Positions 46,106 to 49,422 of a stretch of 64,000 bases of DNA are shown here, piece by piece. The notes below the pieces were generated by a model. It did not search any database and was not told the DNA's origin. It saw only the letters and a program-made list of their open reading frames with translations. How positions within the stretch are numbered: position 1 is the first letter of the stretch; every line of letters begins with the position of its first letter. The stretch covers positions 96,001-160,000 of the forward strand of contig OZ250172.1 of assembly GCA_965237905.1 (NCBI GenBank), in the 5' to 3' direction. A program made the position numbers and the translations under genes. The DNA is from Nitrospinaceae bacterium. GTDB taxonomy: Bacteria > Nitrospinota > Nitrospinia > Nitrospinales > Nitrospinaceae.

Positions 46106-46219
46106 GTTTAATTTTAAATAGAAATTAGATAACTTATCATCCGCGAAATACTTAAATCTTTCACCGGTTCATTCGCATCTATAAATGAGACCTTGGCTTA
46201 ACGCCAATCTATAAATAAT

Positions 46220-46341
46220 CCTCCCCTTGCTGAGGGGAGGATACAGGTGGGGTGGGGTTTTTTCGAGATAATGAAAACCTTAAGATTCAAGGAATGGGGT
46301 ACCACAACCTCCCCTGTATCCCCTCCTTCGTAAGGAGGGGA
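46220..46341. repeat. Inverted pair of REP-like palindromes
   Basis: CCTCCCCTTGCTGAGGGGAGGATACAGGTGGGGT (46220-46253) and its inverted relative ACCTCCCCTGTATCCCCTCCTTCGTAAGGAGGGGA (46307-46341). Confidence 0.7.
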
Positions 46342-46452
46342 AATAACACCCCATCGTTCAACGGGTCACTTATAAAAGGTTTCCTCGGTAAGGAGAGGAA
46401 TAATTAATTAACAGCGTTATGCAGAGCTCTCTTTCATCTACAGGAAATTCTC

Positions 46453-46749
46453 ATGGCTAAAATCACATTTCAACCCGATCACCTGACCCACGAATGCGAG
46501 GATGGCATGATGTTGATCGATGTCTGCGAGGAAGTGGATACCGCCCTGTCCTTCGGTTGCACCGAGGGCACCTGCGGCGTGTGCGAGTTGACGGTGTTGA
46601 AAGGCCGGGAGAATCTGAATAAATTTACCGAAGAAGAAAAAGAATACCTCTACGAAGAAGACCTCGAAAACGGCATGCGCCTGGGTTGCCAGCTCAAAAT
46701 CAGGAAGAGCGAAGTCACCATCACCTGGAAGGGTAACCGGGCAAAATAG
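46453..46749 (+). CDS. [2Fe-2S] ferredoxin
   Basis: FGCTEGTCGVC...RLGCQ. Confidence 0.92.
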   Translation: MAKITFQPDHLTHECEDGMMLIDVCEEVDTALSFGCTEGTCGVCELTVLKGRENLNKFTEEEKEYLYEEDLENGMRLGCQLKIRKSEVTITWKGNRAK

Positions 46750-46760
46750 CCTGATTTTCC

Positions 46761-47783
46761 TTATGGTGTCAAGGAGAGACTTGACCCCTTTTCACTTGCC
46801 CCCCACCTTCATTTTTTGCAGGCCTCCGTCCAGCAGGCGATTACCCGGTTAAGAGCGAAATCGATGGGCTGGCCACGATTCACAGAGCTATGAACACCGT
46901 GCCATTTGGAAGTGTCCCGTGGCAATGCACCTTGACGGTATCAGTGGTCTTTGGACTGGAGTTGTTTGAGTTGTGCAGAAACCGCTAGCAGGCGTTTATC
47001 TCCAGGCCGCAATTTCAAACCTGCTTTCACGTCCAGTAATCCCTTGTCCGGTTGGTTCATTTGTCCATAAGCTATGGCTCGCCAGAAATAACCCTCGGCT
47101 GTGGGGTTAATGTCGATCGAAGCGCTTAATGCGGCCACGGCTTCCTTGCTTTTTCCCAGGCTACCAAGCGCAATCCCCTTGTGGTGCAGGGGGTACCACA
47201 ACCAGACCTTGCCACGCTTGTTGAATTTTATGGCCTTGTCAAAGTTAGCTACGGCCTCCTGCGGCCGGTTGCTGCGGTACAGGGCAATGCCTTTTTTAAC
47301 ATAAGCGGTCTGAGTAGAGGGGTCGAGCTTGAGGGCAGCGTCGAACTCCCGGATAGCCTCATTGTACTTTTGCTGCTTGAGGAATCTTTCACCGGCTTTT
47401 TCATGATGATAGCGCTTATTGCCCTCCATCTTCTTGTTGAACTCGCGGTTACTTCTCTCTATTTCCTCAACGGTAGGCATTTTGAAGCGAATCTGTGAGG
47501 AATTCTTTTCGGAGGCGCACCCTGTCCAAGAGGCCATGATCATGATCAAAACAACGTACATCACTGTCGTATGGCAGAAACGGAATGTTGGAGGCGAACA
47601 TAACATGGCTTTTCCCCTGAAGTGATAATAGGATCCCAGTCGGAAAATCGATTGGTATCCTACCACAGGAAATTAAGTGGCTACAAGAATGAATATCGCC
47701 AGGATCGTGTGCTTTTGCGCGAACACAACCCCTCCGTAAAGGAAAAGGAAGAAAAAAGGTCAAGCCCTTTCTTGACACCATAA
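46761..47783. mobile_element. Candidate non-autonomous cassette bounded by 33-bp inverted repeats
   Basis: TTATGGTGTCAAG-N6-CTTGACCnnTTTTC at 46761-46793 and inverted at 47751-47783; TTTCC directly outside both ends. Confidence 0.55.
46941..47606 (-). CDS. TPR-repeat protein, probable lipoprotein
   Basis: Hydrophobic stretch ending WTGC; about four TPRs; AGGGG RBS before ATG 47606. Confidence 0.8.
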   Translation of the reverse strand: MLCSPPTFRFCHTTVMYVVLIMIMASWTGCASEKNSSQIRFKMPTVEEIERSNREFNKKMEGNKRYHHEKAGERFLKQQKYNEAIREFDAALKLDPSTQTAYVKKGIALYRSNRPQEAVANFDKAIKFNKRGKVWLWYPLHHKGIALGSLGKSKEAVAALSASIDINPTAEGYFWRAIAYGQMNQPDKGLLDVKAGLKLRPGDKRLLAVSAQLKQLQSKDH

Positions 47784-47796
47784 TTTCCATCCTCTC

Positions 47797-47931
47797 TCAC
47801 TTCCATTTCCAGTCTTTGTTGACTGAGCTGGCGGGGTTCCACAGCACTTCCTCCTCGTCCATGGTGCAACTGACCCAACGGCTGAAAATGAAAAAGCAAT
47901 CGGAGAGCCGGTTGATGAAGGCGATGGCATG
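47797..47931 (-). pseudogene. Displaced 3' fragment of the cobalamin adenosyltransferase gene
   Basis: Translates HAIAFINRLSDCFFIFSRWVSCTMDEEEVLWNPASSVNKDWKWK*, matching the C-terminus of 48775-49422. Confidence 0.92.
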
Positions 47932-48002
47932 GCCTCGGCTGTCAGCTCAAAATCAGAAAGGGCGAAGTGACGATTGCCTGGAAGGGTAATAGGGCGAAAT
48001 AA
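47926..48002 (+). pseudogene. Duplicated 3' fragment of the ferredoxin gene
   Basis: Translates LGCQLKIRKGEVTIAWKGNRAK* versus LGCQLKIRKSEVTITWKGNRAK* of 46453-46749. Confidence 0.92.
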
Positions 48003-48026
48003 ATGGTAAACGGTGATTTTAGTCCA

Positions 48027-48782
48027 TTATTTAGTAGGCTGGTTATTTTTTATTGTTTCCCATGCACTTAATCTTATTTGGGCATACCTTCTTACACCTT
48101 GGCTTTCATCATTATTCTTGGCAATATCCTCCACGACAGGAATTATTGCATCTAGGTATTGCTCTTGATCGGGAGCAACAATTACAAATTCTCTTCTCAC
48201 TGACCCATGGGGATCCTTGCCAAGGGAAATGAAAGCATCCAGCATTTGCTTGATTTCTTCTTTATTCTCAAGGATGATTAAGATTCTCACCAAAGGCTGA
48301 ACACTATACATTCTATCAACATAGGATTCCGAAATGGTCATTTGCAGGACAAACTCTTTACCTAGCGGGTCCCCAAAGAATCCTGCCAAATCTTGAGTAA
48401 TCCCTAATTTAACTGTGTTGCTATTTTCAGATTTAAACAACTCTCTTAAAGCCGAATGACCTGAAGAATCCCCCATCATTTTAAGTGCCACGGCGACTCT
48501 TTGTATTAGTAATGGATCCTCTCCGGAATTTAATAATTTTTTTAAAACCTCTTTACTTTCGGTGGCTTTTCGCACACCAAGAATAGTCACCGCTCTCCAT
48601 CTAACCTCAAGATCATTCGACGATTGAACAATCTCCAGCAAGCTCTCATTATCTGTCTTTAAATCTCTCTTATAGAGATAATCAGCCCAGTAATCGCTTG
48701 GATCATCTCCTGTTTGTGTCCATCCAGAGCAAAAAAATATTAGAACCACAAATACGATTAATTTAATAATTTGATTATTCAT
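48027..48782 (-). CDS. Exported HEAT-repeat protein (AT-rich gene)
   Basis: Start reassigned to ATG 48782 overlapping the upstream stop; signal-like N-terminus; VRWRAVTILG, DPHGSVR, VRRYA repeats. Confidence 0.75.
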   Translation of the reverse strand: MNNQIIKLIVFVVLIFFCSGWTQTGDDPSDYWADYLYKRDLKTDNESLLEIVQSSNDLEVRWRAVTILGVRKATESKEVLKKLLNSGEDPLLIQRVAVALKMMGDSSGHSALRELFKSENSNTVKLGITQDLAGFFGDPLGKEFVLQMTISESYVDRMYSVQPLVRILIILENKEEIKQMLDAFISLGKDPHGSVRREFVIVAPDQEQYLDAIIPVVEDIAKNNDESQGVRRYAQIRLSAWETIKNNQPTK

Positions 48783-49422
48783 CTTTCCATCTCCAATCTT
48801 TGTTGACTGAGCTTCCGGGGTCCCACAGGACTTCTTCTTCGCCCATGGTGCAACTAACCCAGCGGCTGAAAATGAAAAAGCAATCGGAGAGCCGGTTGAT
48901 GAAGGCGATGGCATGCGCCCCCACTTCATCGTCCCGGTTGAGGCCCACCATGACCCGCTCGGCACGACGGCACACGGTGCGGCATTGATGCAGAAACGCG
49001 TTCACCGGCGTGCCGCCCGGCAGGACGAAGCTGTCCAACGGTTCCAATTCTTCATTCATCGCGTCCATGACTTCTTCCAGCCATTGCAATTTTTCAGCTT
49101 TCATCTCGGCAATCTGACCCTTTTTCGGTGGGTTCTTGGGGTCGCAGGCCAGCTCGTGTCCCAAATCAAACAACCACTGCTGAATGGTCTGCAGAATGCC
49201 GTCCAATTTATCCCGGCGATCCGAAACGGGTTTTTGACTGTTAAAGGTCCGCACCAGCCCGACCAGGGAGTTCAACTCGTCGACCGTCCCGATGGCTTCC
49301 ATGCGGGGATGGTCCTTGGCAATGCGAATGCCCCCCACCAGGCCGGTCTCGCCTTTGTCCCCGGTTTTCGTGTAAACCTTGCCGATTCGCACCACCGGCT
49401 TCTTTTTAATGGGCTTGTCCAT
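48775..49422 (-). CDS. ATP:cob(I)alamin adenosyltransferase, PduO type
   Basis: KVYTKTGDKGETGL, GTVDELNS, FVLPGG, RTVCRRAER, NRLSD. Confidence 0.95.
   Translation of the reverse strand: MDKPIKKKPVVRIGKVYTKTGDKGETGLVGGIRIAKDHPRMEAIGTVDELNSLVGLVRTFNSQKPVSDRRDKLDGILQTIQQWLFDLGHELACDPKNPPKKGQIAEMKAEKLQWLEEVMDAMNEELEPLDSFVLPGGTPVNAFLHQCRTVCRRAERVMVGLNRDDEVGAHAIAFINRLSDCFFIFSRWVSCTMGEEEVLWDPGSSVNKDWRWKDE

What the first reader, a model, noticed from the sequence alone, without database searches (positions are those of the whole stretch)
46672..48919. Two different cargo genes stacked between convergent fdx and pduO, with both gene ends duplicated and fused at a microhomology
Seen in sequence: the order is fdx> <TPR <pduO-3' | fdx-3'> <HEAT <pduO. 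The interval from the fdx 3' end to the pduO 3' end therefore occurs twice with unrelated cargo. Both fragments are in frame, keep their stop codons and differ mostly at synonymous sites (fdx copy GEVTIAW vs SEVTITW; pduO copy DEEEVLWNPA..KWK* vs GEEEVLWDPG..RWKDE*), so they look like alleles from a related lineage rather than decayed copies. On the + strand the intact fdx (46672-46681) and the intact pduO (48910-48919) both contain GGCATGCGCC. The junction (47926-47934) reads GGCATG-GCC, the same 10-mer minus one C. Next to the junction 53 bp (47879-47931 vs 48863-48915) are identical, and divergence begins only beyond them. Inference: a donor allele of a hypervariable slot was added rather than swapped, with one crossover in pduO homology and one at the microhomology, replacing the pduO tail. 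This would be an integrase-free cassette-accretion hotspot for exported repeat proteins.
Basis: partly seen in the sequence, partly recalled or inferred. Interest (0 to 1): 0.85.

Follow-up and report, generated by a model that had tools for sequence, protein, structure and literature searches.

The report
Two slot alleles fused in tandem
Two alternative gene cassettes that normally take turns in one chromosomal slot have been joined end to end at a 10-base match. This is a scar of the cell's own recombination that recurs in this genome and its relatives, not a dedicated new gene-capture machine.

Summary
The structure is real: fdx> <TPR <pduO-3' | fdx-3'> <HEAT <pduO. The join sits on the longest word the two genes share (10 bp, one base lost). 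The slot is hypervariable: 14 of 33 complete copies carry cargo, almost all different; 19 are empty. Stranded gene ends recur there in other genomes, at different breakpoints.

The slot is not special. This genome has about 20 other integrase-free inserts bracketed by a duplicated gene end, and a congener has the same fused two-ended stack between glnS and gltX (names recalled). Cargo is not limited to exported repeat proteins.

Best reading: two pre-existing alleles joined by host recombination, with one homologous anchor and one microhomology join. It works like homology-facilitated illegitimate recombination (HFIR) and leaves the 'insertion with long target duplication' footprint. Which allele was the donor is unresolved.

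This scan has noted both patterns before on other DNA (unchecked notes). Verdict: new member of a known kind, interest 0.3.

The parts
46453..46749 (+). Intact 2Fe-2S ferredoxin gene (fdx), left wall of the slot
   Evidence: Pfam Fer2 E 7e-11; dnaJ-fdx order kept in relatives
46672..46681 (+). 10-bp word in intact fdx, partner of the microhomology
   Evidence: conserved in the congeners aligned
46761..46793 (+). TIRYT-type terminal repeat, GGGG end facing the TPR cargo; preceded by a 5-bp direct repeat copy (46756-46760)
   Evidence: same repeat flanks a Y1 transposase in G002
46941..47606 (-). TPR protein gene, cargo of allele 1 (221 aa from the first ATG; an ATG at 47561 gives a lipoprotein-like N-terminus, judged by eye); GC 0.50
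   Evidence: Pfam TPR_2/TPR_1; found in 1 of 102 genomes of the order at E<=1e-25, only 30 candidates scored per listed genome; GC
47751..47783 (-). Second TIRYT-type terminal repeat, inverted to the first; followed by the second 5-bp copy (47784-47788); also scores as terminator-like on the minus strand
   Evidence: G007 has this repeat and spacer next to an intact pduO (84% over 177 bp)
47797..47931 (-). Stranded pduO 3' fragment with its stop; 78-bp tail with 11 differences, then 53 bp identical to intact pduO
47926..47934 (.). Fusion junction: the shared 10-mer with one base lost
   Evidence: present in contigs of runs X11/X12 without differences
47932..48002 (+). Stranded fdx 3' fragment with its stop, 83% identical to intact fdx
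48027..48782 (-). HEAT-repeat protein gene (251 aa), cargo of allele 2; start codon overlaps the last pduO codons; hydrophobic N-terminus by eye; GC 0.38
   Evidence: Pfam HEAT_2; 3 relatives among 771 candidates, 63-83% identical
48775..49422 (-). Intact cob(I)alamin adenosyltransferase gene (pduO), right wall of the slot
   Evidence: Pfam Cob_adeno_trans E 7e-59; pduO-pyrR order kept in relatives
48910..48919 (+). 10-bp word in intact pduO; exact in this genome only, 0 of 12 relatives aligned

Best explanation
The fdx-pduO gap is a variable slot whose alleles (empty, TPR, HEAT and many others) circulate with short tails of the flanking genes attached. A chromosome with one allele met DNA with another. 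Recombination used ordinary homology on one side (dnaJ-fdx or pduO-pyrR) and, on the other side, joined pduO of the TPR allele to fdx of the HEAT allele at their 10-bp match, losing one base. Both cargoes were kept, both intact genes survived, and the two inner gene ends were stranded. Shown: anatomy, microhomology, allele diversity, recurrence, no nearby recombinase gene. Inferred: uptake by natural transformation, RecA use, a one-step event, and that the 53 identical bases reflect a shared recent background of the two alleles or a tract copied twice.
For: The junction lies on the longest shared word; HFIR joints mostly show 3-10 bp microhomology (PMC3240628, passages). Each half looks like a natural single allele: repeat-plus-pduO as in G007, fdx-plus-repeat as in G008 and G002, HEAT next to pduO in a 294-nt sediment contig (X1 record 7). 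14 of 33 complete slots are filled and 3 of the 14 hold a duplicated flank end, at different breakpoints. Genome-wide, 17 of 26 same-strand downstream 3'-end repeats within 12 kb lie outside ORFs, against 0 of 6 upstream and none on the opposite strand nearby. Relatives have a single copy and no insert at serB (4 of 4 with a match there) and at glyQ (G002). G002 has the same fused stack at glnS-gltX with an 8-bp join matching one gene 8/8 and the other 7/8. comEC and dprA families are present.
Against: No anchor crossover could be located: third-position divergence along dnaJ, fdx, pduO and pyrR shows no clear boundary. The 53-bp tract has 0 differences while 12 relatives differ there at 3-13 sites, which a one-step join of two independent alleles explains only with an extra assumption. 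HFIR generally deletes about as much as it inserts; here there is a net gain of about 1 kb. A comM-like gene (name recalled) appears split next to a serine recombinase, which may lower transformation. G001's stranded fdx end starts in the same 10-mer, which hints at a preferred site.
Confidence: 0.6

Rival explanations
1. Duplicate first, swap later. A tandem duplication between the two 10-mers copied the whole interval; the left copy was then replaced by the TPR allele through a double crossover, one in dnaJ/fdx and one at the edge of the 53-bp tract.
For: Explains the 53 identical bases directly; the two 10-mers are exactly the direct repeats needed; slot alleles are plainly exchanged.
Against: Needs two rare steps and an unstable 1-kb perfect tandem in between; most of the other loci are one-ended and cannot arise this way; no locus with twice the same cargo among 14 filled slots.
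Confidence: 0.15
2. Circle route. The HEAT allele was excised from a donor as a 984-bp circle by recombination between the 10-mers and integrated by one crossover in the pduO end.
For: A single crossover in the 53-bp tract gives exactly this order; circularised fragments gave 109-950 bp duplications in E. coli, more often than HFIR (PMC3240628, passages); the contig graph also allows a loop.
Against: The donor pduO would also need the 10-mer, found in 0 of 12 relatives; no replication or transfer function on the unit; transforming DNA enters single-stranded (established knowledge).
Confidence: 0.12
3. A TIRYT Y1 transposase acting in trans delivers cargo to its terminal repeats and sometimes carries neighbouring gene ends along, making the illegitimate join.
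For: The TPR gene is bounded by TIRYT repeats; repeats follow fdx in G002, G008, L075, L083, L084 and precede pduO in G007; in L085 an fdx fragment begins about 20 bp from such a repeat.
Against: The window's junction is about 145 bp from the nearest repeat; the HEAT unit has none; the 12 repeat-like sites of this genome do not coincide with the other gene-end duplications; no PF01797 match in G000; 3 of 21 genomes of the family have one.
Confidence: 0.08
4. Artefact: a chimera of two strains, or an episomal circle written into the chromosome by the assembler.
For: Only one sample holds the stretch; no record spans it whole; the HEAT contig has about half the depth of its flanks in X12 (123 against 238 and 261), though the tool warns that depth is no share of cells.
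Against: The fused sequence is in both runs without differences, at 131 against 137-161 in X11; a separately assembled congener has the same architecture at another slot.
Confidence: 0.05

Closest known systems
Homology-facilitated illegitimate recombination (HFIR) of S. pneumoniae, A. baylyi and P. stutzeri (as summarised in PMC3240628; passages read; the original 2002-2003 papers not read)
   Same: One homologous end, one join at a 3-10 bp microhomology, about 1 kb gained, no recombinase gene.
   Different: Here both partners are alleles of the same slot, so the product is a stack with two stranded gene ends and no net gene loss. Anchor and RecA use are not shown.
Insertion with long target duplication (Furuta, Abe and Kobayashi 2010, PMC2853133; passages read)
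   Same: Small insert without mobile-element genes, flanked by a duplication over 30 bp, mostly in competent species.
   Different: Described for restriction-modification genes with near-identical repeats; here the cargo is not RM, the copies are 83-92% alike, and two gene ends are duplicated and fused.
Minimal mobile elements of Neisseria (definition as quoted in PMC3787668 and PMC1797815; passages read; Saunders and Snyder 2002 not read)
   Same: Different cargo between the same conserved flanking genes.
   Different: The passages read describe replacement through flanking homology; this locus is additive.
Transformation-made merodiploids of S. pneumoniae (Johnston et al. 2013, PMC3784515; passages read)
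   Same: Donor DNA pairing at two places bridges sister chromatids and yields a tandem arrangement.
   Different: Those use long IS861 repeats and duplicate 100-900 kb of the same DNA; here a 10-bp match and about 1 kb of different cargo.
TIRtrons / TIRYT (Di Nocera et al. 2013, PMC3733652; subclass 2.1 of Quentin et al. 2018, PMC6006769; passages read)
   Same: The repeats around the TPR gene match 7 of 8 positions of GGGGWSAS and flank a Y1_Tnp plus Bac_DnaA_C gene in G002.
   Different: In the window they frame cargo, not a transposase, in the opposite orientation. The passages read mention solo, dimeric and clustered TIRs but no passenger genes.

Membership tests
HFIR product | 3-10 bp microhomology at the illegitimate join | tested here: met
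   10-bp word, longest shared, one base lost
HFIR product | Homologous anchor crossover on the other side | tested here: inconclusive
   No boundary visible in divergence profiles against 8 relatives
HFIR product | Naturally competent host, linear donor DNA | tested here: inconclusive
   comEC and dprA families present; competence itself not shown
HFIR product | RecA dependence | not testable with these tools
   Needs genetics
HFIR product | Usual trait: deletion of similar size to the insertion | tested here: inconclusive
   No gene is lost; any replaced DNA would be homologous and invisible
Insertion with long target duplication (RM units) | Duplication over 30 bp, insert under 20 kb | tested here: met
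   131 and 70 bp; units of about 1 kb
Insertion with long target duplication (RM units) | Insert carries R and M genes | tested here: not met
   TPR and HEAT only; same footprint, not filed as an RM member
Insertion with long target duplication (RM units) | No mobile-element gene in or beside the insert; empty site in relatives | tested here: met
   Nearest of 5 PF00589 matches about 57 kb away; PF00239 one distant match; PF01797, PF02371, PF00665 none; 19 of 33 slots empty. Other transposase families were not searched.
Minimal mobile element | Different cargo between the same conserved flanking genes | tested here: met
   14 of 33 complete slots filled
Minimal mobile element | Exchange by homologous recombination in the flanks | tested here: inconclusive
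   G006 and L079 share interval and fdx end but differ in the pduO end; no conspecific strains available
TIRtron / TIRYT subclass 2.1 | TIRs with a GGGGWSAS-like motif | tested here: met
   7 of 8 positions; same repeat flanks the G002 transposase
TIRtron / TIRYT subclass 2.1 | Y1 HUH transposase gene between the TIRs | tested here: not met
   TPR gene instead; no PF01797 match in G000. These are orphan ends, not a TIRtron.
Integrative element inserted at a gene 3' end | Linked integrase | tested here: not met
Integrative element inserted at a gene 3' end | One fixed crossover core | tested here: not met
   Breakpoints differ in G000, G025, G051 and L085; G000 and G001 share the fdx site

The most novel reading that the evidence does not exclude
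TIRYT terminal repeats act as cargo docking ends. A transposase supplied in trans places foreign genes between two repeats facing inside-out, creating alleles of slots between convergent core genes, which host recombination then swaps and stacks. The support is circumstantial. A 5.5-kb inside-out cassette fills rph-nth in G000, where 6 of the 10 congeners searched have the two genes adjacent. The GGGG side has lower GC in 25 of 32 sites, not independent and including about 5 weak matches. One sediment contig skips exactly 1028 bp, the TPR cassette plus one 5-bp repeat, with the letters between not known. The alternative is that these are eroded TIRtron remnants in regions that are variable anyway.
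Probability: 0.15. Interest if true: 0.7.

Novelty: new member of a known kind. Interest (0 to 1): 0.3.

Why it matters
It is a clean natural record of how accessory genes accumulate without an integrase. The two-ended fusion shows both parents of the illegitimate join, which one-ended scars hide, so the microhomology can be read directly here and in G002. About 20 such scars in one 3.1-Mb genome suggest this route is routine in this lineage. If the TIRYT repeats do dock cargo, a widespread and biochemically untested transposase class would gain a function and a defined substrate.

Tried and rejected
Donor direction by similarity to relatives: unresolved for fdx and pduO and for four other loci (the L167 row there misaligned and was ignored).

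The idea that the 10-mer in pduO was templated from fdx: dropped, because G004 encodes the same three residues with other codons.

The 5-bp repeat as a target-site duplication: not established. The other repeat pairs lack one, and single-sided alleles carry the same five bases.

Depth drop of the HEAT contig in X12: a hint only; GC 0.38 could bias it. The TPR gene had no cover in X1 or X5, which proves nothing.

HEAT relatives in genome contigs: 206 pattern hits, none confirmed. Promoter and terminator scans were at chance level (5 against 3.6; 4 against 3.8). Earlier-finding look-ups by place returned nothing.

Dropped from the slot count: 11 of 39 pduO-bearing genomes where fdx was not adjacent on one contig (G001, G002, G004, G007, G022, G023, G026, G029, G034, G057, G076), and 6 of 11 metagenome loci (4 without pduO, 2 near-duplicates). 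L079, L076 and L085 repeat alleles of G006, G004 and L082, so the 33 rows are not independent. Part of the output was cut.
Full report
Observation. The order is fdx (46453-46749, +), TPR (46941-47606, -), pduO 3' copy (47797-47931, -), fdx 3' copy (47932-48002, +), HEAT (48027-48782, -) and pduO (48775-49422, -). The copies are 92% and 83% identical to the intact genes. They differ at 7 synonymous and 4 non-synonymous codons of 43 (pduO) and 11 and 2 of 23 (fdx). The join lies on the longest exact word that fdx and pduO share on this strand; 5.7e-5 of position pairs fall in such a run.

Read support. Contigs of two runs of one sample carry the fused sequence with no differences.

The slot. pduO was found in 39 of 120 genomes of the phylum. 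In 28 of these, and in 5 of 11 metagenome loci, fdx and pduO face each other on one contig. Of those 33 slots, 19 are empty (125 bp or less) and 14 are filled; three rows repeat alleles already counted. Contigs of G001, G002, G004 and G007 end inside or at the slot. Cargo includes DUF5069, NMT1-like, radical SAM, HEPN_AbiU2, DUF4268, TIR_2, a sulfate permease with a response regulator, and 7 of 15 scanned proteins without any Pfam match. So the slot is hypervariable but not reserved for exported repeat proteins.

Stranded ends at this slot. Among the 14 filled slots, three hold a duplicated flank end: G000 (both), G025 (pduO, 105 bp, 96%) and G051 (fdx, 32 bp, 84%, decayed). G001 has a decayed fdx end starting in the same 10-mer, and L085 has fdx codons 43-98 behind a terminal repeat. 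Breakpoints otherwise differ.

The genome. A scan of 2876 ORFs for terminal fragments repeated elsewhere found 26 same-strand 3'-end repeats within 12 kb downstream, 17 of them outside ORFs. There were 6 upstream (0 outside ORFs), none nearby on the opposite strand, and 32 at greater distance (11 outside ORFs); 7 of 11 upstream 5'-end repeats lay outside ORFs. I inspected 27 rows. One was the window's own, one a shadow ORF, and two 5' rows were doubtful. The other 23 show in-frame gene ends 78-98% alike, many decayed, 0.2-4.6 kb from the gene; my ORF list showed one to six ORFs in between for 21 of them. Names such as glyQ, glnS, gltX, serB, ligA, rnr, mnmE, comM, cysH, msbA, rph and nth are recalled from the protein starts, not from a call. 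Two of these loci lie within 10 kb of recombinase genes; the others do not.

Five loci were checked in five congeners. serB is empty with a single end in 4 of the 4 that match there, and glyQ is empty in G002. The others are variably filled, empty or unlinked. At glnS-gltX, G002 has the window's exact architecture: glnS, cargo, gltX fragment fused to glnS fragment, cargo, gltX. Its copies are 97% alike and the 8-bp join matches one gene fully and the other at 7 of 8.

Mechanism. Each half of the stack resembles a natural single allele. The simplest route is one recombination between two allele-bearing DNAs, homologous on one side and microhomology-guided on the other. That is how HFIR works (PMC3240628, passages), and the footprint is that of insertion with long target duplication (PMC2853133, passages). 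comEC and dprA families are present. The 53 identical bases need care: 12 relatives differ there at 3-13 sites. Either the two alleles shared a recent background up to an older swap point, or the tract was copied twice, or a duplication came first. I could not separate these, nor tell donor from recipient.

What was missed. The TPR gene is framed by 33-nt inverted repeats. Twelve like sites occur in the genome and none in a shuffled copy; one of the twelve scores at the threshold. The pattern occurs in 6 of 11 genomes of the genus. In G002 the same repeats enclose a 330-aa Y1_Tnp plus Bac_DnaA_C gene, whose last codons the right repeat encodes: a TIRtron of subclass 2.1 (PMC3733652 and PMC6006769, passages). 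In the window the repeats face the other way, and G000 has no PF01797 match. Such repeats sit directly after fdx or before pduO in several alleles and frame 5.5 kb between rph and nth. They may help generate alleles, but they do not explain the junction, which is about 145 bp away.

Literature and earlier notes. Eight searches were run. One search found no paper from 2014 on that holds 4 of the terms Y1 transposase, inverted repeats, cargo, cassette and RAYT; the library lacks most subscription papers, so this is no proof of absence. Figures and supplements of PMC2853133 (Supplementary Figure 7) and PMC3733652 (Figure 9) were not seen and may hold closer cases. Unchecked notes of this scan describe the same two-allele stack (e1-1015003), the genome-wide footprint (e1-5251964 and others) and TIRYT ends around cargo (e1-6998956, e1-7669616) in other genomes.

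Verdict. The feature is real and well formed. It is explained by known recombination routes, and it is one of many in this lineage. New member of a known kind, interest 0.3. The inside-out TIRYT cassette is the lead worth testing (probability 0.15, interest 0.7 if true).

Noticed in passing
G000:C1:318900-324437: 5.5 kb with six ORFs (TetR-like, dehydrogenase-like and others, names recalled) framed by an inside-out TIRYT repeat pair between rph and nth; the two genes are adjacent in 6 of 10 congeners.
   Followed up: partly
L169 (G002:C77:36913-39968): Second fused two-ended stack, between glnS and gltX (names recalled), with an 8-bp imperfect microhomology. G000 has separate glnS and gltX fragments at the same slot.
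   Followed up: yes
G000 whole genome: About 20 further integrase-free inserts bracketed by a duplicated gene end; in many the cargo ORF lies within about 20 bp of the stranded fragment.
   Followed up: partly
L090:3004-4048 (G002:C17) and L091 (G005:C191): TIRtron with a 330-aa Y1 transposase; the right repeat encodes its last codons. G005 has one next to a gene beside which G000 keeps only a solo repeat.
   Followed up: partly
L085:261-477: Small toxin-like ORF end (ParE-like, recalled), a TIRYT repeat, then fdx codons 43-98 only, cargo and pduO.
   Followed up: partly
window 46212-46343: Hairpin repeats of a REP-like family between dnaJ and fdx with many copies in the genome and in metagenome contigs.
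   Followed up: no
G000:C1:2649968-2658660: A comM-like C-terminal ORF (name recalled) with a duplicated 3' end lies beside a serine recombinase and a tyrosine recombinase gene; comM may be interrupted by a mobile element.
   Followed up: no
window 48775-48782: The HEAT start codon overlaps the last pduO codons, which end KDE-stop where most congeners end K-stop; HEAT may be translationally coupled to pduO.
   Followed up: no
L002 and L079, slot: The 35-bp 'empty' slot of G006 holds a 12-bp remnant of a TIRYT repeat.
   Followed up: no
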